Virus genome (UHGV): UHGV-0149611
Reading direction: 5' to 3' (one strand)
DNA length: 14,327 nt
From: a virus
Shown here: one piece after another, positions 1,877 through 14,327 of the stretch
Numbering within the stretch: the first letter of the stretch is position 1
How the letters are laid out: every line of letters begins with the position of its first letter
Notes under the pieces: model-generated
What the model was told of the DNA's origin: nothing
The model's database searches: none
The model's input: only the letters and a program-made list of their open reading frames with translations
Translations under genes and position numbers: made by a program

Positions 1877-3420
1877 CGTCTATTGAATCCTTATACAATC
1901 CCTTTCCAGAATCTTATCAGACCTTAAAAGCAATAACTCTATAGTCTACTCTATAACCTCTTATCAAATCAACTTAAATAAAAGCCAATAACCCCCAGAA
2001 AGGGGATGGCCCATTTAAACGCTCTATAAAGCTCTATAACAGCCTTATCAACCTAACTTAAGGGATTGCATTAACCAACCTTAAAAAGCTCTTTACAGGG
2101 CTTTATAGAGACTTAAAAGAATCTTATAAGGGTGTAAGCTTTATCATCTCGTTAGTATCTTGTGAATAACTAAAAAGGGCTATGAGATAGGAATCTATCG
2201 AATCCTATTGTTAGTGTCTTAAAAGTATGTTATAGGGGCTTAAAAGTTACTTCAAAGTTACGTAAAAGGGGTTATAAAGTTACGTAAATGCTAACCCCCT
2301 TAACATTATCTTAACAATCCCTACATAGTTATGCTTGTTAGAGACTTGTTAGCCACTTGTTAAATCTCTGTTAAGACCACGTAAAAGCCTTGTAAGAGTC
2401 TTTGACATAGCCTTAAAAGTTCCTGTAAAGCCCTATAAAGAGGTGTCTGTATAGTTGGGGTGTAACTACTAGGAAGAGACTTAAAAGGGGCTATACAGAG
2501 CTATAGAGAGCTTTTAAGAGGTATGTTTAAGGAATCACTAAGAAGGGAAAGGGAACGATAAGAAAGAGATAGTGACCATGTTAATAGCTTGTTAAAAAGA
2601 TTAAACACTTGTTAGAGACTTGTTAATTATCTTAACAAAATAACTCTTAAAAATTAACTTGTTAGCTCTTGTTAGTCATCTGTTAAGATTCTGTAAAGCC
2701 CATGTATCAACTGTTAAGAAACTGTTAAGCCCTTGTTAGTTCTGTTAAGAATCTGTTAAGACCTATGAAGAGTTGTTAAGAGCTTGAGAGAGTTGTTAAG
2801 AAATTGTTAAGGATATTTTAAAATTTTGCAAAGTACTTGTAAGGGAGTTGTTAAGGGCTACCAAGCAGATATACACCCTATTCAGATATTTTTGAGTTCC
2901 TTCAAAGACCCTAAAAAATGACTTGATAGTCCTATTTTATAAAAATTTTAAGATTCTGAATAATTACCTAGACAGTCTTTTAAAAATACAGGTAATAACA
3001 GGCTTATAAGATACCTTGTTAGTACCGTGTTAGACCTTGTGAGATAAGGTCTGTAAAGATATTCCTGTTAAGTTTGTTAAAACAGTCTATATAGAGGCTT
3101 AGTAATACCTAGTGAACACCTATAGAGAGTAACATAGCTGACATAGAGATTAAGAGGTGTATAGGAGCTTCTAAGAGGGTATAGAGAGATGGTTAAGGTG
3201 ATTGTATAGGTTGTTTAGAAGGCTTGTTAGAAGAGTGTTTAGAAGGGCTATTTAGAAGGGTTATACAGAGGGCTATTAAGACCACTAGATAGTTACTAAG
3301 ATACTATATAGTACTATATAACTATATAGAGAGTAAGATTAAGAAGGTTGTTAAGAAGGATAGATATTTTATTCACATATGATGGTGACCAAGAGGTTGG
3401 GACAACCGATAAAATTTTAT
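1877..3420. repeat. ~1.5-kb non-coding region of degenerate short words (CTTAAAAG, CTATAAAG, CTTGTTAG, CTGTTAAG, TTAGAAG, CTATATAG), partly phased at ~10-11 bp
   Basis: No ORF of 60 aa or more on either strand; stop-rich in all frames; YTGTTARG words starting at 2588, 2609, 2619, 2659, 2669, 2680, 2711, 2722, 2732, 2742, 2753, 2773, 2793, 2804. Confidence 0.8.
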
Positions 3421-3451
3421 AAAAATTAAAAAGCCCCCAATTAAGGAGGCT
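3421..3451 (-). terminator. Rho-independent terminator candidate at the end of the leftward gene block
   Basis: On the minus strand: AGCCTCC-TTAATT-GGGGGCT hairpin followed by TTTTTAATTTTT, just downstream of the stop at 3463. Confidence 0.6.
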
Positions 3452-11092: not shown

Positions 11093-11464
11093 ATGAAAAA
11101 CAGAACAAACAAAGGCCAGTTTAAAAAAGGCCAGTCTGGAAACCCATCTGGAAGACCAAAAGGCTCTCGTAACAAAAGCTCACTTGTAAAAGCTCAACTG
11201 ACCATTGATAATTCTGCTGAGTTTGCTGCAAAGTTGTTTGAGGCGGTTGTTACAAGGGATGCTGCTAAGCTTGCAGAGTTCGGTTTGACGACTGACGATG
11301 TAAACCTGAAGTCGATGATGGAGGCTGGTAAAACCATCATGACTCACTCAGCAGGTGAGATGAAAGCGATTGCAGCAGACACTAAGAAGACCCCTGATAA
11401 TGGTGGTCAGTCTCAGACAGATAACAAACCAACGTTCTCTGCTGTAGCGACTCTCAAAAAATAA
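11093..11464 (+). CDS. hypothetical small basic protein (123 aa) with N-terminal GNPSGRPKGS (AT-hook-like) motif
   Basis: AAGAGG 7 nt upstream of ATG; GRP core flanked by basic residues; Ala-rich probably helical C-terminal part. Confidence 0.65.
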   Translation: MKNRTNKGQFKKGQSGNPSGRPKGSRNKSSLVKAQLTIDNSAEFAAKLFEAVVTRDAAKLAEFGLTTDDVNLKSMMEAGKTIMTHSAGEMKAIAADTKKTPDNGGQSQTDNKPTFSAVATLKK

Positions 11465-11545: not shown

Positions 11546-12961
11546 ATGAGCGAATTATTTAAACATGCGCACCTTCATGCAGGTCGAACTGAAAATGGTG
11601 CTGTAAACCATACTTCATCAATGTCTGCTCTTGTAGACTTTTACAAAGCTGCTGGTTCAAGCCGTAGCAACGTAGAAATCTTACCAGACCTGTTCTACAA
11701 AGCTTTGCGTGAGGATGTTGATGTTGCAGTTCGTATTTTGCTTCATATGCGAGATGTACGAGAAGGTATGGGTGAGCGTAAAGCCTTCAGAACTGTTTTA
11801 CTTCAAGCGATTGAAGACAAAGTTTTAGAGCCTACGCAGGTTCTTCGCATTATGGATAAGATTGCAGAACTTGGTCGTTTTGATGACTTCAAAATCTTCG
11901 TAGGTACTCGTTTCGAGACAGATGCCTTCAAACATCTAGAAGCAGCATTACTAGACCCTGCAACAGCAGGTTTGGCGGCTAAGTGGTTACCACGAGTCAA
12001 ACCACGTCATAAGCAGTTTGTAAAACGTTTCTGCAAGTTTGCCAACTTGAGTGAGAAAGAGTACCGCACACTGTTGTCTGCACTATCTGATACAGTTGAG
12101 CAAAAAATCTCTGCTAATGAGTTTGGTAAGATTGACTACAGTAAGATTCCTTCACTTGCTGCTGCACGTTACCAAAAACTGTTTAACCGCAAAGATGGAG
12201 AACGCTACAAAGCTTACATCGAGTCCTTATCAAAGGGTGAGACTAAGATTAATGCTGGTGCTGTTTACCCATACGATGTAATTAAATCTGTTAAGCATGG
12301 TAATGCAGATGTTGCTAATGAGCAGTGGAAAGCACTACCAAACTGGATGGCAGAGGGTGAAAACATCTTGTGTATGTCTGATGTTTCAAGCTCAATGTCT
12401 TGGGTGAATTTTGGTTCAATTACTGCTCTTGATATTGGTGTTTCACTTGCATTGTATGTAGCAGAACGTAATACAGGTTGCTTTAAGAATGAGTTGATGG
12501 TTTATTCAACAAACCCTCACTTCATCGAACTGAGTGGTGATTTACGAAACCGTCATCGTCAGGTGATGCGACACGTTGAATATGGCTCAACTAACTTACA
12601 AGCAGCTTTTGACCGTATTCTTGAAACAGGTAAAAGAAACAACTTGACTCAGAAAGATATGCCAAGTAAGCTTATCATCTTCTCCGATATGGAGTTCAAT
12701 CAGGTTGATGGAGCTAACGGTCGTACAAACTTTGAAGCAATTCGTAGTAAGTACAAAAAAGCTGGATACGAAATGCCTCAACTGGTATTCTGGTACTTAG
12801 CAAACCGTAATGGTACTTGCGAAGTGTCTGTTAAGGATAACGGTGTAGCAATGGTATCTGGTTTTTCTCCAGCTACTTTAAAAGCTCTGCTTGGTGGTGA
12901 GAAGTTTGACCCAATCAGCGTAATGCTCAAAGCAGTAATGATTGACCGTTATATCTGGTAA
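11546..12961 (+). CDS. von Willebrand factor A (vWA) domain protein with complete MIDAS motif (471 aa); possibly Ro60/TROVE-like
   Basis: C-terminal ~190 aa: ILCMSDVSSSM (DxSxS), GSTNL (Thr), LIIFSDME (Asp) in the expected order of a vWA fold; N-terminal ~270 aa appears helical; Ro60-like architecture is inferred only. Confidence 0.8.
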   Translation: MSELFKHAHLHAGRTENGAVNHTSSMSALVDFYKAAGSSRSNVEILPDLFYKALREDVDVAVRILLHMRDVREGMGERKAFRTVLLQAIEDKVLEPTQVLRIMDKIAELGRFDDFKIFVGTRFETDAFKHLEAALLDPATAGLAAKWLPRVKPRHKQFVKRFCKFANLSEKEYRTLLSALSDTVEQKISANEFGKIDYSKIPSLAAARYQKLFNRKDGERYKAYIESLSKGETKINAGAVYPYDVIKSVKHGNADVANEQWKALPNWMAEGENILCMSDVSSSMSWVNFGSITALDIGVSLALYVAERNTGCFKNELMVYSTNPHFIELSGDLRNRHRQVMRHVEYGSTNLQAAFDRILETGKRNNLTQKDMPSKLIIFSDMEFNQVDGANGRTNFEAIRSKYKKAGYEMPQLVFWYLANRNGTCEVSVKDNGVAMVSGFSPATLKALLGGEKFDPISVMLKAVMIDRYIW

Positions 12962-12979: not shown

Positions 12980-13008
12980 TTGACAATGTGTTTGATGCCC
13001 TTTAATAT
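12980..13008 (+). promoter_or_regulatory. sigma70 promoter: TTGACA (12980-12985), 17-bp spacer, TAATAT (13003-13008)
   Basis: Near-consensus hexamers with canonical spacing and TTTTAAAAAGGGTA upstream; about 120 nt upstream of the first tRNA. Confidence 0.55.
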
Positions 13009-13070
13009 GTTCTACATAGAAACGAAACGAGAGCTTTTCTAAGATACTGAAAAATATTTTAAAAAAGTTC

Positions 13071-13100
13071 TTGACAACCACTAAAAAATAATGTTAAAGT
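13071..13100 (+). promoter_or_regulatory. sigma70-like promoter candidate: TTGACA (13071-13076), 18-bp spacer, TAAAGT (13095-13100)
   Basis: Same architecture as 11477-11506; 27 nt upstream of tRNA-Pro. Confidence 0.45.
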
Positions 13101-13210: not shown

Positions 13211-13288
13211 GTTCCAGTAGACAAAATGGTAAAGTCACCACTCTTTCAAAGTGGATATCTGAGGGTTCAAATCCCTTCTGGAACGCCA
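13211..13288 (+). tRNA. tRNA-Glu (anticodon UUC), CCA encoded
   Basis: Acceptor GTTCCAG/CTGGAAC, anticodon arm CCACT-CTTTCAA-AGTGG, T-arm GAGGG-TTCAAAT-CCCTT, discriminator G, CCA. Confidence 0.75.
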
Positions 13289-13295
13289 GTTTTGA

Positions 13296-13367
13296 CAGAA
13301 GACCAATTACAGCAAACTTAATCTACTCATCTGACACGAAATCGGACAAAGAAGATATTTGGTCTGG
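13296..13367 (+). ncRNA. Stem-bounded element a: CAGAAGACCAA ... TTGGTCTGG
   Basis: 7-bp arms AGACCAA/TTGGTCT enclosing 52 nt; conserved flanks CAGAAGACC and GGTCTGG shared with elements b-d. Confidence 0.4.
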
Positions 13368-13378
13368 TCATTGAGAAT

Positions 13379-13455
13379 TGCGGGTATAGAGAAAGGGCGT
13401 CTCACATGTCTCATTAGCATGGTATCGGCAGGTTCGACTCCTGCACCCGCCTCCA
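13379..13455 (+). tRNA. tRNA with anticodon CAU (Met or Ile2); atypical features
   Basis: T-arm GCAGG-TTCGACT-CCTGC, acceptor 3' ACCCGCC plus U plus CCA, D-arm GAGA/TCTC, anticodon arm CATGT-CTCATTA-GCATG; register of the 5' acceptor strand ambiguous by 1 nt; position 37 is U. Confidence 0.55.
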
Positions 13456-13461
13456 ATTTTG

Positions 13462-13521
13462 CAGAAGACCGTATTCAGCAACAAAATACTTTTTGCGGAT
13501 AAAAGAAAAAACACGGTCTGG
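13462..13521 (+). ncRNA. Stem-bounded element b: CAGAAGACCGT ... ACGGTCTGG
   Basis: 7-bp arms AGACCGT/ACGGTCT enclosing 40 nt; arm sequence co-varies relative to elements a and c. Confidence 0.4.
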
Positions 13522-13532
13522 CAATGTATTAA

Positions 13533-13609
13533 GGTTAGGAAGCACATAAGGTATGTGCGGTCGCCTGTTAAGCGAATGGCACAGGGTTCGAATCCCTGAC
13601 TAACCGCCA
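13533..13609 (+). tRNA. tRNA-Asn (anticodon GUU), CCA encoded
   Basis: D-arm GCAC/GTGC, anticodon loop CTGTTAA, T-arm CAGGG-TTCGAAT-CCCTG, acceptor 3' ACTAACC, discriminator G, CCA. Confidence 0.8.
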
Positions 13610-13618
13610 AATTTAAAT

Positions 13619-13706
13619 GTGTCGTTATCCCGTAGATGGTAGCGGTGGGGACTGTAAATCCCTTGTCATTGAGACTCGGTAGGTTCGACTCCTACACGAC
13701 ACACCA
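13619..13706 (+). tRNA. tRNA-Tyr (anticodon GUA), long variable arm, CCA encoded
   Basis: Acceptor GTGTCGT/ACGACAC, anticodon arm GGGGA-CTGTAAA-TCCCT, ~15-nt variable arm, T-arm GTAGG-TTCGACT-CCTAC, discriminator A, CCA; 88 nt. Confidence 0.85.
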
Positions 13707-13711
13707 ATAAA

Positions 13712-13789
13712 GGTTATGTAGTTTAATTTGGTTAAAATACTACCCTGTCACGGGAGATGATGAGGGTTCAAATCCCTTCGTAACCGCCA
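13712..13789 (+). tRNA. tRNA-Asp (anticodon GUC), CCA encoded
   Basis: Acceptor GGTTATG/CGTAACC (one G-U), anticodon loop CTGTCAC, T-arm GAGGG-TTCAAAT-CCCTT, discriminator G, CCA. Confidence 0.8.
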
Positions 13790-13814
13790 ATTTTGAGAGG
13801 GCTATTTAGCCCCT

Positions 13815-13848
13815 CCCTTAAAGAGTTCTTACGAGTATTCTTTAAGGG
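13815..13848 (+). other. Perfect 10-bp hairpin CCCTTAAAGA / TCTTTAAGGG with 14-nt loop; a smaller GGGCT/AGCCC hairpin sits at 13799-13812
   Basis: Exact reverse-complementary arms; no U-tract follows, so not a classic intrinsic terminator. Confidence 0.5.
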
Positions 13849-13850
13849 AG

Positions 13851-13924
13851 CAGAAGACCAAATACAGCAAGAATGTATGAAATTTCAAGCCAATTTAATT
13901 TTGAAAATTTAAAACTTGGTCTGG
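13851..13924 (+). ncRNA. Stem-bounded element c: CAGAAGACCAA ... TTGGTCTGG
   Basis: 7-bp arms AGACCAA/TTGGTCT enclosing 54 nt of AT-rich sequence. Confidence 0.4.
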
Positions 13925-13937
13925 CTCAACAAATTTA

Positions 13938-14070
13938 CAGAAGACCGTTTACAGCAAAACTTAAACAATCTATTTCTCCGGTAAAGAAAAGGCGAAGGTT
14001 CGATTCCTTCACTCGGCAGATGTCGAGTTGGTGTAATGGTAGCACTTAAGATGATAAACAACGGTCTGGT
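13938..14070 (+). ncRNA. Stem-bounded element d enclosing a circularly permuted tRNA-like domain; candidate Y-RNA-like tRNA mimic
   Basis: 8-bp arms AGACCGTT (13942-13949) / AACGGTCT (14060-14067); inside, in order: hairpin TTTCT-CCGGTAA-AGAAA (13973-13989), T-arm GAAGG-TTCGATT-CCTTC (13994-14010), acceptor 3' ACTCGGC (14011-14017), 4-nt link AGAT (14018-14021), acceptor 5' GTCGAGT (14022-14028, pairs 7/7 with one G-U), then U8 and D-arm GTGT-AATGGTA-GCAC (14031-14045). Confidence 0.45.
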
Positions 14071-14212
14071 AATTATCTTTGTAGATAAGTTATTAAGCTT
14101 ACCTGTGAGTATGCGACCACAAAGGGTGAAAGGGTAAATTCTAGATTTAAACCCAAAAAGGCACATCGCTACAGACCTTAAGCAAGTCTGGGTAGCTTAT
14201 CTACAAAGATAA
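14071..14212 (+). repeat. 19-bp perfect inverted repeat AATTATCTTTGTAGATAAG (14071-14089) / CTTATCTACAAAGATAATT (14194-14212) enclosing ~104 nt
   Basis: Exact reverse complementarity; the enclosed segment contains a compact CAGACC-TTAAGCAA-GTCTGG version of the element motif (14171-14190). Confidence 0.7.
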
Positions 14213-14218
14213 TTTAAT

Positions 14219-14278
14219 GGAAGTGTAGCAGAATGGTGATGCGGCAGACTTTTAATCTGACAGGCGATGGGTTCGAAT
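14219..14278 (+). tRNA. tRNA-Lys (anticodon UUU), 3' end truncated by the end of the real insert
   Basis: Acceptor 5' GGAAGTG, D-arm GCA/TGC, anticodon arm GCAGA-CTTTTAA-TCTGA, T-stem 5' ATGGG plus T-loop TTCGAAT, then adapter begins. Confidence 0.55.
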
Positions 14279-14327
14279 CTGTCTCTTATACACATCTCCG
14301 AGCCCACGAGACACTCGCTAATCTCGT
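14279..14327. other. Illumina Nextera adapter read-through (not biological sequence)
   Basis: CTGTCTCTTATACACATCT + CCGAGCCCACGAGAC + 8-nt index ACTCGCTA + ATCTCGT, the transposase mosaic end followed by the i7/P7 adapter layout. Confidence 0.95.

What the first reader, a model, noticed from the sequence alone, without database searches (positions are those of the whole stretch)
13938..14070. Circularly permuted tRNA-like domain closed by a long-range stem: candidate phage Y-RNA-like tRNA mimic
Between the co-varying arms AGACCGTT and AACGGTCT, the sequence holds every element of a tRNA cloverleaf except a closed anticodon loop, but in permuted order: a 5-bp/7-nt hairpin, a canonical T-arm (GAAGG-TTCGATT-CCTTC), acceptor 3' strand ACTCGGC, a 4-nt link, acceptor 5' strand GTCGAGT (7 of 7 pairs, one G-U), U8, then a canonical D-arm with the GG dinucleotide. 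The ends of the domain sit where the anticodon stem would be and are brought together by the flanking stem. As I recall it, this is the architecture described for bacterial YrlA-type Y RNAs (Ro60-binding stem plus tRNA-like module). It lies ~1 kb downstream of a vWA/MIDAS protein that could be Ro60-like. A permuted tRNA gene needing cleavage and ligation is the alternative reading.
Basis: partly seen in the sequence, partly recalled or inferred. Interest (0 to 1): 0.9.

Follow-up and report, generated by a model that had tools for sequence, protein, structure and literature searches.

The report
Phage Y-like RNA mimicking tRNA
A Felix O1-type phage encodes, just after a gene for a Ro60-shaped ring protein, a small RNA with a tRNA-shaped body in rearranged order; its closing stem and motif recur in many phages and closely resemble the unexplained "Class I" RNAs of social amoebae.

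Summary
Window 13942-14067 folds as an 8-bp terminal stem enclosing a hairpin, a canonical T arm, a closed 7-bp acceptor-like hairpin, U8 and a canonical D arm.

**Partner protein.** The upstream protein (11546-12961, Pfam DUF2828+DUF7788) has a predicted Ro60 fold. It is 98% identical to Bas63 gp130, a published Ro60-like counter-defence protein whose RNA partners had only been guessed at.

**Repeats of the module.**
- The element is one of four copies in the window of a terminal module: stem, UUACAGCAA, variable insert, stem, then G.
- The same module occurs on the gene strand within 1 kb of distant DUF2828 genes in 50 of 75 loci.
- About 16 of these carry the same permuted tRNA-like insert, with every stem compensated.

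**Database matches.** Rfam's YrlA model hits the tRNA-like cores of relatives below its threshold. Rfam's Dictyostelium Class I RNA model hits the short modules below its threshold.

**Best reading.** This is a Y-RNA-type partner of a divergent Ro60 paralogue, with a YrlA-like tRNA-mimic effector domain on a Class I-like protein-binding module. It is not a functional permuted tRNA gene and not tRNA debris. Binding, RNA ends and function are inferred, not shown.

The parts
11546..12961 (+). Gene for a 471-aa Ro60-like ring protein (alpha-helical repeat domain plus vWA/MIDAS domain). It matches Pfam DUF2828 and DUF7788, and PHROG 850 'RNA-binding protein'. It is the orthologue of Bas63 gp130.
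   Evidence: Pfam; PHROGs; AF2 model; Foldseek top 11 PDB hits all Ro60; invariant MIDAS residues; 98% identity to bas63_0130.
12980..13100 (+). Two sigma-70-like promoters (TTGACA-N17-TAATAT at 12980-13008; TTGACA-N18-TAAAGT at 13071-13100) upstream of the tRNA/RNA array. No terminator-like site lies on the + strand between 13127 and 14290.
   Evidence: Consensus scan. The total count is not above the shuffled expectation, so this is only suggestive of co-transcription with the tRNAs.
13300..13367 (+). Short terminal module 1, in the spacer between tRNA-Glu and tRNA-Met. It reads AGACCAA-UUA-CAGCAA ... UUGGUCU-GG and has no tRNA-like insert.
   Evidence: Sequence; CM R1 hit of 28.4 bits; Rfam RF01414 hit of 17.5 bits.
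13466..13521 (+). Short terminal module 2, between tRNA-Met and tRNA-Asn. It reads AGACCGU-AUU-CAGCAA ... ACGGUCU-GG.
   Evidence: CM R1 hit of 39.1 bits; RF01414 hit of 24 bits, E 0.017.
13855..13924 (+). Short terminal module 3. It reads AGACCAA-AUA-CAGCAA ... UUGGUCU-GG and lies directly upstream of the finding.
   Evidence: It is conserved in all seven Ounavirinae lineages aligned.
13942..13949 (+). Long-form element: 5' strand of the terminal stem (AGACCGUU).
   Evidence: Pairs with 14060-14067. Positions 6-8 covary between the four paralogous copies and among 16 distant members.
13950..13957 (+). Conserved single-stranded motif UACAGCAA (family consensus N-U-A/U-CAGCAA), adjacent to the 5' stem strand. 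It is the proposed protein-recognition motif.
   Evidence: It is present in all 14 elements that were found by a descriptor not containing it. Consensus from 71 modules: U at spacer position 2 in 70 of 71.
13973..13989 (+). V hairpin (UUUCU-CCGGUAA-AGAAA), the equivalent of YrlA's variable arm.
   Evidence: The loop differs among orthologues (CCGGUAA, CUGGUAA, CUAUAAA; different in Moogle). Its length and loop vary or it is absent in distant members.
13994..14010 (+). T arm (GAAGG-UUCGAUU-CCUUC).
   Evidence: Three of its five pairs covary among 16 members.
14011..14028 (+). Closed acceptor-like hairpin (AS): ACUCGGC-AGAU-GUCGAGU, 7 bp.
   Evidence: Three compensated versions within the Ounavirinae. 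All seven pairs show double changes among 16 members.
14029..14045 (+). U8-G9 followed by the D arm (GUGU-AAUGGUA-GCAC) with A14, G18 and G19.
14060..14069 (+). 3' strand of the terminal stem (AACGGUCU) plus the conserved trailing GG (G in all family members).

Best explanation
The element is a non-coding RNA of the Y RNA kind. It is the RNA partner, or one of four partners in this phage, of the Ro60-shaped ring protein encoded about 1 kb upstream.

**Release (inferred).** The RNAs lie in spacers of the phage tRNA array. They are probably released from the polycistronic transcript when RNase P and 3' processing free the neighbouring tRNAs.

**Terminal module.** The 5' and 3' ends pair in a 7-8-bp stem. 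This pairing is shown by covariation. The stem, the adjacent single-stranded UUACAGCAA and the trailing G form a module shared by all copies. I infer that this module is what the ring protein recognises, as the Y RNA stem is recognised by Ro60.

**Effector module.** The variable interior is the effector part. In the finding it is a circularly permuted tRNA body: the T/D elbow plus a closed 7-bp acceptor-like helix, with the anticodon side open towards the stem. This is the same design as the bacterial YrlA RNAs.

**Likely function (inferred by analogy).**
- The tRNA-shaped handle would recruit or occupy a tRNA-recognising host factor. Candidates are PNPase (as in Ro60-Y RNA-PNPase complexes), RNase P, the CCA-adding enzyme or TruB.
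- It may also gate the ring.
- The 7-bp helix makes RNase P cleavage in the AS loop likely, as happens in M. smegmatis YrlA.
- In this way the RNA would tune an RNA-handling or counter-defence particle during infection.
For: **Structure.**
- The fold is reproduced by MFE.
- RNAalifold on seven Ounavirinae lineages gives 27 pairs.
- The AS stem is fully compensated in three versions among syntenic orthologues.
- A manual structural alignment of 16 members has 99.4% of cells paired, against 36-46% when the register is slid. Nineteen of 23 pairs carry double changes.

**Protein.**
- Predicted Ro60 fold.
- Invariant MIDAS residues.
- 98% identical to Bas63 gp130. That protein is reported as Ro60-like and as a counter to the Ppl defence, and its authors only speculated that some annotated tRNAs might be Y RNAs (PMC11482910).

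**Linkage, protein to RNA.**
- In 75 distant DUF2828 loci, the module descriptor gives 146 hits on the gene strand against 30 on the other strand.
- Of the gene-strand hits, 63 lie within 300 nt of the gene.
- 50 of 75 loci have one within 1 kb. These include phages with no tRNA genes at all.
- CM R1 gives 60 plus-strand hits against 4 minus-strand hits.

**Linkage, RNA to protein.**
- A motif-only scan of viral contigs returned 73 well-paired modules.
- Of these, 24 have a DUF2828 gene in the DNA held. In 23 of the 24 the gene is on the same strand, mostly 40-650 nt away.
- None of 13 unpaired, chance-like matches has such a gene.

**YrlA-likeness.**
- Same module order.
- Rfam YrlA hits the tRNA-like cores of relatives at 25-39 bits, with E down to 2.6e-6.
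- G15 goes with C48 in 5 of 6 members, and U48 occurs only with A15.
- N-CCA opens the AS loop in 4 of 8 long loops of the aligned set. A fifth case is seen in L087/L088.

**Precedents.**
- D. radiodurans Y RNAs are co-transcribed with a tRNA.
- M. smegmatis YrlA, which has a 7-bp acceptor stem, is cut by RNase P and receives CCA in vivo.
Against: - No expression, end-mapping or binding data exist for these RNAs.
- Folding energy alone is unremarkable (z = -1.46).
- The window element gets no Rfam YrlA hit at E<=10.
- It lacks the GNCGAAN0-1G Ro-binding motif at the 5' stem. The one regex match, at 13991-13997, overlaps the T stem and is not conserved in Moogle, ESh22 or SUSP1.
- The protein has no significant sequence match to TROVE or Ro60. 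Pfam gives nothing at E<=10, and a PDB profile search gives E = 0.6.
- gp130 alone, from a plasmid or inserted in T7, restores plaquing on Ppl hosts. That activity therefore does not need the phage RNAs.
- In the reverse test, most modules (18 of 29 with at least 2 kb held on both sides) have no DUF2828 gene nearby. Adjacency is frequent but not obligatory.
- The 16-member alignment was selected with a pairing descriptor, so its pairing statistics are partly circular. The terminal stem and the motif were not part of that descriptor.
Confidence: 0.7

Rival explanations
1. The element is a tRNA-shaped decoy or processing element that works without the Ro60-like protein. It could be a sponge or competitive inhibitor for host tRNA-targeting nucleases or tRNA-processing enzymes. 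It could also be a punctuation signal that directs RNase P or RNase Z cleavage of the polycistronic tRNA transcript.
For: - It sits inside a tRNA array with no terminator between genes.
- The 7-bp acceptor-like helix plus T arm is a classical RNase P and CCA-enzyme substrate shape.
- Many modules in viral contigs lie in tRNA arrays without a DUF2828 gene in the DNA held.
- gp130 acts without the RNAs in T7.
Against: - The shared stem + UUACAGCAA module also occurs directly next to DUF2828 genes in phages that have no tRNA genes.
- The gene-strand and distance bias is strong in both directions of the test.
- Short modules lack any tRNA-like part yet keep the motif, so the conserved feature is not a tRNA-processing signal.
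Confidence: 0.15
2. The locus is a genuine circularly permuted or split tRNA gene, a tRNA-Thr(GGU)-like one. Its transcript would be cut in the acceptor loop and joined at the D-arm/anticodon-arm junction to give a functional tRNA.
For: - From 13973 to 14018 the sequence reads as a perfect tRNA 3' portion: a 5-bp stem with a 7-nt loop, a 4-nt variable region, the T arm, the acceptor 3' strand and A73. It scores 22 bits with Rfam tRNA.
- tRNAscan-based annotations call a 129-nt 'tRNA-Thr-GGT' here.
- In Sf13 and CHB7 the loop is a canonical CUGGUAA.
- Some relatives encode N-CCA after the acceptor strand.
Against: - The loop is not conserved among orthologues: CCGGUAA has C33, ESh22 has CUAUAAA, and Moogle has a different hairpin.
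- In distant members the hairpin has 3-nt loops, has other lengths or is absent.
- Variants exist with no acceptor helix at all.
- The same terminal module carries non-tRNA inserts in three other copies in the window.
- The array already has a tRNA-Thr(UGU).
- Most AS loops are tetraloops without CCA.
Confidence: 0.05
3. It is not a functional unit. It would be either the junction of two decayed tandem tRNA genes or a small protein-coding region on the minus strand (window ORF 13909-14166; bas63_0137/0138).
For: - It lies in a tRNA array where tRNA remnants are plausible.
- Some GenBank records annotate short hypothetical ORFs across it.
Against: - The 3' acceptor strand pairs with the following 5' strand in every lineage through compensatory changes. 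Decay would not preserve that.
- The arrangement recurs in unrelated phages, always inside the same terminal module.
- Lineages differ by indels that are not multiples of three in the AS loop, which is incompatible with a conserved ORF.
- A true tandem-tRNA junction (L054 tRNA-Ser/tRNA-Ser) was recognised and excluded.
Confidence: 0.03

Closest known systems
YrlA-type bacterial and phage Y RNAs (Chen et al. 2014, PMC4201824; Rfam RF02553), partners of Ro60/Rsr
   Same: - The stem is formed by the 5' and 3' ends, followed by V, T, closed acceptor-like (AS) and D arms in that order.
- tRNA tertiary nucleotides are kept.
- It is encoded near, and on the same strand as, a Ro60-shaped protein.
- It comes together with shorter partner RNAs that lack the tRNA domain (the YrlB analogy).
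- Like D. radiodurans Yrn1/Yrn2, it lies next to tRNA genes.
- Like M. smegmatis YrlA, it has a 7-bp acceptor-like helix.
   Different: - There is no GNCGAAN0-1G motif and no bulged Ro-binding helix. Instead it has a 7-8-bp stem + UUACAGCAA + trailing G.
- The protein belongs to Pfam DUF2828/DUF7788, not TROVE.
- The window element does not reach any Rfam YrlA score. Relatives reach 25-39 bits against a threshold of 69, and only in the T-AS-D core.
Class I RNAs of dictyostelid social amoebae (Aspegren 2004; Avesson 2011; Kjellin et al. 2021, PMC7919456; Rfam RF01414)
   Same: [quoted passage not shown]
- The conserved motif (C)CUUACAGCAA lies directly after the 5' stem strand.
- The termini are conserved as AAG ... 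CUG(U).
- The interior is variable and A/U-rich.
- Length is about 42-65 nt, matching the phage short forms at 46-65 nt.
- The genes are multi-copy.
- In the loci not chosen by motif, the RF01414 hits above the reporting cut-offs fall on predicted modules. The hits in the motif-selected loci were not all checked against predicted modules.
   Different: - Scores are below Rfam's threshold: 17.5-33.7 bits against 41.5.
- The spacer is one nucleotide shorter.
- The window's copies end in CUGG and start with CAGAAG.
- Genes are in a phage, are sigma-70-type and are co-transcribed with tRNAs, not Pol III/DUSE genes.
- The long form carries a tRNA-like insert unknown in Dictyostelium.
- The known direct binder in Dictyostelium is the RRM protein Rnp1A/CIBP.
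- Whether dictyostelids have a DUF2828 protein could not be tested here.
Thermus phage phiLo Ro60 with Yrl1/Yrl2 (PMC12135203), and the mycobacteriophage Ro60/YrlA pairs
   Same: - A phage-encoded Ro60-fold protein has adjacent small structured RNAs on the same strand.
- A counter-defence or host-RNase-hijacking role is proposed.
   Different: - Those proteins are canonical TROVE proteins.
- Their RNAs carry the CGAA motif.
- The phiLo RNAs are not described as tRNA-like.
Circularly permuted tRNA genes of Cyanidioschyzon merolae and other algae/archaea (own knowledge; reviewed in PMC3400036 and PMC4238349, listed)
   Same: The 3' half of the cloverleaf precedes the 5' half in the gene, and the acceptor strands are joined by a short linker.
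   Different: - Those genes yield real tRNAs through a circular intermediate made at a bulge-helix-bulge site.
- Their anticodon loops are conserved.
- Here the break lies at the anticodon side, is closed by a long conserved non-tRNA module, and the 'anticodon-like' hairpin is not conserved.

Membership tests
YrlA / Y RNA-like (Rfam RF02553; Chen et al. 2014) | Order of elements: 5'/3' terminal stem enclosing the V arm, T arm, closed acceptor-like stem-loop and D arm. | tested here: met
   compared with the description and the Rfam consensus structure.
YrlA / Y RNA-like (Rfam RF02553; Chen et al. 2014) | GNCGAAN0-1G motif near the 5' end, in the Ro-binding stem. | tested here: not met
   A regex over 13281-14230 finds only GGCGAAGG at 13991-13998. 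That match overlaps the T stem and is absent in Moogle, HP1, ESh22 and SUSP1. The 5' stem region carries UACAGCAA instead.
YrlA / Y RNA-like (Rfam RF02553; Chen et al. 2014) | Score at or above the curated Rfam gathering threshold (69 bits). | tested here: not met
   The window has no YrlA hit even at E<=10. Relatives score 38.9, 28.7 and 25.2 bits in L078 and 30.9 bits in L167.
YrlA / Y RNA-like (Rfam RF02553; Chen et al. 2014) | Encoded within about 4 kb of, and on the same strand as, a Ro60 orthologue. | tested here: inconclusive
   The element is on the same strand, 0.98 kb downstream of a protein with a predicted Ro60 fold. That protein is not a TROVE-domain orthologue by sequence.
YrlA / Y RNA-like (Rfam RF02553; Chen et al. 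2014) | Bound by Ro60. Carries tRNA modifications (Psi55, D). Is a substrate of RNase P or the CCA-adding enzyme. | not testable with these tools
   Needs RIP or CLIP, modification mapping and in vitro RNase P assays.
Dictyostelid Class I RNA (Rfam RF01414; Kjellin et al. 2021), applied to the terminal module | A short stem joining the 5' and 3' ends, with structure but not sequence conserved. | tested here: met
   All seven terminal-stem pairs carry double changes among 16 members. The four window copies also covary.
Dictyostelid Class I RNA (Rfam RF01414; Kjellin et al. 2021), applied to the terminal module | A conserved ~11-nt motif (Rfam consensus CCUUACAGCAA) adjacent to the 5' strand of the stem. 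| tested here: met
   The phage consensus is N-U-(A/U)-C-A-G-C-A-A, three nucleotides after a 7-bp stem. The window copies read UUACAGCAA, AUUCAGCAA, AUACAGCAA and UUACAGCAA. The spacer is one nucleotide shorter than in the Rfam consensus.
Dictyostelid Class I RNA (Rfam RF01414; Kjellin et al. 2021), applied to the terminal module | Conserved termini: start AAG, end CUGU. | tested here: inconclusive
   Distant phage modules read (A/U)-A-G ... C-U-G-(A/U). G, C and the trailing G were fixed by the descriptor. The A before the G (56 of 71) and the U after the C (56 of 71) were free. The window's copies read GAAGACC ... GGUCUGG, that is CUGG and not CUGU.
Dictyostelid Class I RNA (Rfam RF01414; Kjellin et al. 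2021), applied to the terminal module | Length 42-65 nt with a variable interior. | tested here: not met
   The finding itself is 126 nt and has a tRNA-like insert. The window's three short copies (54-68 nt) and most phage short forms (46-65 nt) do fit.
Dictyostelid Class I RNA (Rfam RF01414; Kjellin et al. 2021), applied to the terminal module | Score at or above the Rfam gathering threshold (41.5 bits). | tested here: not met
   Scores are 17.5-33.7 bits. In the loci not chosen by motif, all eight hits coincide with independently predicted modules on the gene strand. Five further hits are in loci that were selected by the motif itself.
Canonical or permuted tRNA gene | Recognised as a tRNA. 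Has a conserved 7-nt anticodon loop with U33 and a conserved anticodon among orthologues. | tested here: not met
   ARAGORN makes no call. Rfam tRNA gives a partial match of 22 bits, below the 29-bit threshold. The loop varies: CCGGUAA, CUGGUAA, CUAUAAA or something else.
Canonical or permuted tRNA gene | Processing into a contiguous mature tRNA (circular intermediate or ligation). | not testable with these tools
   Needs tRNA-seq or Northern analysis.
Ro60 / TROVE protein family (the partner protein) | Sequence match to the TROVE domain or to Ro60. | tested here: not met
   Pfam returns only DUF2828 and DUF7788 even at E<=10. phmmer against the PDB finds nothing. A profile against the PDB finds Ro60 only at E = 0.6-1.3, in the vWA part.
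Ro60 / TROVE protein family (the partner protein) | Helical-repeat ring plus a C-terminal vWA domain with MIDAS (the Ro60 fold). | tested here: met
   The AF2 model has Ro60 structures as its 11 best Foldseek PDB hits over about 520-555 alignment columns. Canonical phage TROVE proteins appear among the BFVD hits. The DxSxS...T...D residues are invariant. This rests on a predicted structure, not a solved one.

The most novel reading that the evidence does not exclude
The phage terminal module and the dictyostelid Class I RNAs are the same RNA class. Both would be the Y-RNA-type ligand of the DUF2828/DUF7788 branch of Ro60-like ring proteins.

That protein family is found in phages, in giant viruses of protists and in eukaryotes. 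Class I RNAs would then not be a Dictyostelia-specific invention tied to multicellularity. They would be the eukaryotic members of an ancient Ro60-paralogue RNP.

[quoted passage not shown] It would be the prime candidate for the ring protein.

In phages the same module has been fused to a YrlA-like tRNA mimic.
Probability: 0.45. Interest if true: 0.92.

Novelty: new variant of a known kind. Interest (0 to 1): 0.82.

Why it matters
**It names the missing RNA partners.** gp130 of the Felix O1 family is a Ro60-like phage counter-defence protein with a published knockout phenotype against the Ppl system. The RNAs described here are its likely partners. Bas63 is a tractable model, and the finding region itself (13938-14070) is identical in it (the whole tRNA-Asp to tRNA-Lys spacer is 98% identical).

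**It extends the Ro60/Y RNA principle.**
- A second, sequence-unrecognisable protein family (DUF2828/DUF7788, more than 2,500 clusters) appears to follow the same logic: a ring protein plus a modular RNA.
- These proteins occur in many phages and giant viruses.
- tRNA mimicry has been combined with a different protein-binding module.

**It connects to a 20-year-old puzzle.**
- The abundant Class I RNAs of Dictyostelium have no known mechanism and are published as unique to dictyostelids.
- If the resemblance reflects a shared protein partner, their function becomes directly testable.

**It corrects annotations.** Hundreds of phage genomes carry a spurious 'tRNA-Thr-GGT', a 'tRNA-OTHER' or small hypothetical ORFs over these RNAs.

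Tried and rejected
**Dead ends and weak tests.**
- Thermodynamic significance of the fold was not significant (z = -1.46), so I did not use it.
- MAFFT alignment of divergent members misplaced the AS and 3' stems. I replaced it with a hand-built, N-padded structural alignment.
- The first reverse-scan pattern had a spacer one nucleotide too long. It returned 18 mostly chance matches and one real module 16 nt from a DUF2828 gene. I redid it with the right register.

**Sources that were not available.**
- The supplementary phage list of Chen et al. 2014 is not held.
- Avesson et al. 2011 is not held.
- The supplements of Kjellin et al. 2021 do not mention DDB_G0281243 or DUF2828.
- The PhageMaP supplements are not held. 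Knock-out phenotypes of bas63_0137/0138, which overlap the RNAs, could therefore not be read.
- The AFDB fold library was not available.

**Attempt to reach a Dictyostelium DUF2828 protein.** I walked from a giant-virus homologue (L130). This returned only unnamed marine metagenome proteins.

**Considered and rejected.**
- Tandem-tRNA junction. One true case, L054, was recognised and removed.
- Intrinsic terminator or attenuator. No T-run follows, and the one terminator-like call, at 14012-13992, is just the T arm read on the minus strand.
- Minus-strand ORF.
- GNCGAA at 13991 as a Ro-binding site. It is not conserved.

**Neighbours of unlinked modules.** The recurrent neighbour of modules without a nearby DUF2828 gene is a GIY-YIG/NUMOD homing endonuclease. 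I read this as a mobile-element passenger of tRNA regions, not as a partner.
Full report
**Setting**

The window is a Felix O1-type phage (Ounavirinae, Felixounavirus). The 500 bases around the finding match about 250 phage records, and 190 of them at 95% identity or more. The last 49 bases of the window are a Nextera adapter.

The finding lies in a 430-bp spacer between tRNA-Asp (13712-13789) and a tRNA-Lys that the adapter truncates (14219 onward). The spacer sits near the start of the phage's array of more than 20 tRNA genes. That array begins about 170 bases after a 471-codon gene at 11546-12961.

**The observation**

- terminal stem AGACCGUU (13942-13949) with AACGGUCU (14060-14067);
- a 5-bp/7-nt hairpin (13973-13989);
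- T arm (13994-14010);
- a closed 7-bp acceptor-like hairpin (14011-14028);
- U8-G9 (14029-14030);
- D arm (14031-14045).

The minimum-free-energy fold reproduces this arrangement. Its energy is not unusual: z = -1.46, and 13 of 200 shuffles fold as well. ARAGORN and Rfam call no tRNA here. Rfam's tRNA model aligns only the hairpin plus T arm, at 22 bits. Some GenBank records carry a spurious 129-nt 'tRNA-Thr-GGT' that ends at the acceptor 3' strand.

**Conservation within the subfamily**

I aligned the spacer from seven Ounavirinae lineages: Felixounavirus, Suspvirus (SUSP1, CHB7) and Mooglevirus (Moogle, HP1, Sf13, ESh22).
- The T arm, D arm and terminal stem are invariant or nearly so.
- The acceptor-like helix exists in three fully compensated versions: ACUCGGC-AGAU-GUCGAGU, ACCCUUC-GCCAAACA-GAAGGGU and ACACG-UUACGG-CGUGU.
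- RNAalifold returns the five-helix structure.
- The hairpin loop is not conserved. It reads CCGGUAA, CUGGUAA or CUAUAAA, and Moogle has a different hairpin. This argues against an anticodon arm.
- Indels that are not multiples of three argue against the small minus-strand ORFs that some records annotate here.

**The protein**

The 471-aa product matches only Pfam DUF2828 and DUF7788 and PHROG 850, 'RNA-binding protein'.
- It has no significant sequence match to any solved structure.
- A family profile touches Ro60 only at E = 0.6, in the vWA region.
- An AlphaFold2 model built on 35 homologues (pLDDT 85, pTM 0.85) has Ro60/TROVE structures as its 11 best PDB matches over the full length. These include Xenopus Ro60, D. 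radiodurans Rsr and Thermus phage phiLo Ro60.
- Among viral models, DUF2828/DUF7788 proteins of phages and of giant viruses come first. Canonical phage TROVE/Ro-like proteins follow.
- The MIDAS residues are invariant.
- The protein is 98% identical to Bas63 gp130.

A 2024 preprint (PMC11482910) reports gp130 as structurally Ro60-like and as the counter to the Ppl defence system. It also reports that gp130 is active on its own when moved to T7. [quoted passage not shown] The finding region itself (13938-14070) is identical in Bas63; the whole tRNA-Asp to tRNA-Lys spacer is 98% identical.

**The same design elsewhere**

I fetched 75 loci around distant DUF2828 genes (about 40% identity). A strict descriptor was run on them: T arm, then a perfectly paired closed 7-bp hairpin, then U, then a D arm with GG.
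- It found 14 non-tRNA instances on the gene strand and none on the opposite strand.
- One tandem tRNA-Ser junction was recognised and set aside.
- All 14 turned out to be enclosed by a stem whose sequence differs in every case. The stem is followed on its 5' side by (U)UUCAGCAA or UACAGCAA and on its 3' side by G. None of these features was part of the descriptor.

A hand-built alignment of 16 such elements gives the following:
- 99.4% of cells paired, against 36-46% in slid registers;
- double changes in 19 of 23 pairs;
- double changes in all seven pairs of the terminal stem and all seven of the acceptor-like helix.

The pairing of T, AS and D is partly circular here, because those helices were selection criteria. 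The terminal stem is not.

tRNA-type tertiary features are kept:
- U8, A14, G18, G19 and the T-loop are present.
- G15 goes with C48 in 5 of 6 members.
- U48 occurs only with A15.

The loop of the acceptor-like helix begins with N-CCA in 4 of the 8 long loops of the aligned set. A fifth case is seen in L087/L088. Variants exist with T and D arms but no acceptor helix. This suggests that the T/D elbow is the essential part.

**A shared terminal module**

A covariance model built from the Ounavirinae alignment also matched short sequences that keep the stem and motif but lack the tRNA-like part. Reading the window showed four copies of one module, 'AGACC(N2-3)-NUW-CAGCAA ... (N2-3)GGUCU-GG':
- three short copies (13300-13367, 13466-13521 and 13855-13924), two of which each lie in a spacer between two tRNA genes (the third follows tRNA-Asp, directly upstream of the finding);
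- the long copy, which is the finding.

The inner stem positions covary between copies. Bas63 has the same four copies and no more.

In the 75 distant loci, a module descriptor gave these counts:
- 146 hits on the gene strand against 30 on the other strand;
- 63 of the gene-strand hits within 300 nt of the gene;
- 50 of 75 loci with a hit within 1 kb, including phages with no tRNA genes.

The consensus of 71 distinct modules is (A/U)-A-G-(G/A)-W-U-N-N-N-U-(A/U)-CAGCAA ... N-N-A-W-Y-C-U-G-(A/U). Short forms are 46-65 nt long.

**Reverse test**

I scanned viral contigs for the motif alone, without reference to any protein.
- It gave 86 matches. In 64 of them all three unconstrained stem pairs form; chance would give about 5%.
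- A DUF2828 gene lies in the DNA held for 24 of the 73 well-paired modules. In 23 of the 24 it is on the same strand, mostly 40-650 nt away.
- No DUF2828 gene lies near any of the 13 poorly paired matches.
- Where at least 2 kb is held on both sides, 11 of 29 modules have the gene.

Linkage is therefore strong but not obligatory. Many modules lie elsewhere, often in tRNA arrays beside GIY-YIG homing endonucleases. At least two of these sit on contigs that carry the gene at another place.

**Comparison with known RNA families**

*YrlA.* Chen et al. 2014 describe YrlA as a 5'/3' stem carrying the Ro-binding motif GNCGAAN0-1G, followed by V, T, AS and D. Rfam's YrlA consensus shows the same order.
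- The window element has this order but not the motif. It gets no YrlA hit even at E<=10.
- Relatives are hit at 25-39 bits, with E down to 2.6e-6. The match lies in the T-AS-D core, and the outer stems are mismatched.

*Class I RNA.* Rfam's model of Dictyostelium Class I RNA (RF01414) hits the short modules at 17.5-33.7 bits, against a threshold of 41.5.
- In the loci not chosen by motif, all eight hits fall exactly on modules predicted independently, on the gene strand.
- Its consensus is GaUcuC-CUUACAGCAA-[A/U-rich]-GagAuC-UG.
- The published definition matches the phage short forms point by point, apart from a spacer one nucleotide shorter. That definition is: 42-65 nt, a short terminal stem, an 11-nt motif next to the 5' stem strand, start AAG, end CUGU and a variable remainder (PMC7919456).
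[quoted passage not shown] DUF2828 proteins occur in plants and in mimivirus-like sequences and in several giant viruses. I could not test whether dictyostelids have one.

**Interpretation**

*Shown.*
- A conserved, covarying RNA structure with a permuted tRNA-like body.
- Its membership in a widespread family defined by a common terminal module.
- The family's strong, strand-specific genomic linkage to a protein family with a predicted Ro60 fold.

*Inferred.*
- The ring protein binds the stem-plus-motif module.
- The RNAs are released by processing of the flanking tRNAs. Promoter-like sites lie at 12980 and 13071, and there is no terminator in the array.
- The tRNA-like body is an effector or decoy module that engages tRNA-recognising factors, as proposed for YrlA. 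RNase P probably cleaves in the acceptor loop, given the 7-bp helix.

gp130 alone counters Ppl in T7. The RNAs are therefore more likely adaptors or regulators than essential cofactors of that activity.

*Rivals.*
- A protein-independent tRNA decoy or processing signal: 0.15.
- A true permuted tRNA gene: 0.05.
- Decay products or small ORFs: 0.03.

**Novelty**

- Ro60-Y RNA particles, YrlA tRNA mimicry and phage Ro60 homologues are known.
- The Ro60-likeness of gp130 is in a preprint.
- I found no description of these RNAs in Rfam 15 or in the searchable literature.
- I classify the finding as a new variant of a known kind: a different Ro60-like protein family, a different RNA recognition module and the same tRNA-mimic idea.
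- The possible identity of the module with dictyostelid Class I RNAs is the most novel reading that the evidence leaves open. I give it a probability of about 0.45.

Noticed in passing
window 14279-14327: The window ends in Nextera transposase adapter sequence (CTGTCTCTTATACACATCTCCGAGCCCACGAGAC...). The adapter truncates tRNA-Lys(UUU), which starts at 14219. The contig end is therefore a library artefact, and Rfam's 31-bit tRNA call at 14219-14290 runs into the adapter.
   Followed up: yes
window ~1900-3450: This is a 1.6-kb ORF-free region between convergent gene blocks. It is also unannotated in Bas63 (70492-72155). It is packed with iterons phased at 10-11 bp, (C/T)TGTTAAG and CTTAAAAG-type, in both orientations. 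A sharp GC-skew change runs across it. It looks like a protein-binding array such as an origin, partition site or packaging site.
   Followed up: partly
window 14070-14214: A third structured element lies directly after the finding. An 18-20-bp long-range helix with compensatory changes between lineages (GUAG/CUAC to GCAG/CUGC) encloses a three-way junction. The last hairpin of that junction is a miniature of the module: CAGACC-UUAAGCAA-GUCUGG at 14172-14191 (Moogle: AAACC-CUUUAGCAA-GGUUU). It may be a further partner RNA.
   Followed up: partly
window 13795-13850: Two conserved hairpins directly follow tRNA-Asp: GAGAGGGC-UAUUU-AGCCCCUC, and a 12-bp stem CUCCCUUAAAGA...UCUUUAAGGGAG. Neither has a T-run. 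They could be a processing (RNase III-type) site or a protective structure.
   Followed up: partly
L001 3600-3728; L089 10749-11023; window 13909-14166 (-): Public records mis-annotate the RNA region in several ways: a 129-nt 'tRNA-Thr-GGT' (vB_EcoM_ASO1B, REP5-7), a 'tRNA-OTHER', or small minus-strand hypothetical ORFs (bas63_0137/0138).
   Followed up: yes
L039 5778-5898; L022 1520-1639; L033 5835-5943: Some variants of the long form keep the terminal module, T arm and D arm but have no acceptor-like helix. They lie immediately upstream of the DUF2828 gene. This suggests that the T/D elbow is the minimal functional part.
   Followed up: partly
L003 3580-3587; L059 7587-7593; L078 7867-7875 and 10551-10556; L087 62-72: The loop that closes the acceptor-like helix starts with N-CCA in five elements. 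The 3' end of a tRNA appears to be encoded there and could be exposed by RNase P cleavage and trimming.
   Followed up: partly
L112, L117, L119, L137, L158 and others (near modules): GIY-YIG/NUMOD (Seg-like) homing endonuclease genes are the most frequent neighbours of modules that have no DUF2828 gene nearby. An HNH endonuclease is likewise inserted in the tRNA array of phage garuso (L002 4007-4492).
   Followed up: partly
L054 11715-12132; L077 4253-4443; L087 3231-3307: Other RNAs turned up in related viral contigs. There is a phage-encoded tmRNA (88 bits), a group I intron-like sequence (40.9 bits, below threshold) next to tRNAs, and a tRNA with anticodon UUA that would read the UAA stop codon.
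   Followed up: no
L130 1558-3276 and 3479-3615; L144 9263-11416: Contigs labelled as giant-virus MAGs also carry a DUF2828 gene with one or two modules within 600 nt. In L130 the gene is divergently oriented. Whether these contigs are truly giant-virus DNA was not checked.
   Followed up: partly
window 11093-11464: A conserved 123-aa DUF5681 protein (PHROG 4114, unknown function) lies directly upstream of the Ro60-like gene and has its own promoter-like site. I did not examine whether it belongs to the same system.
   Followed up: no
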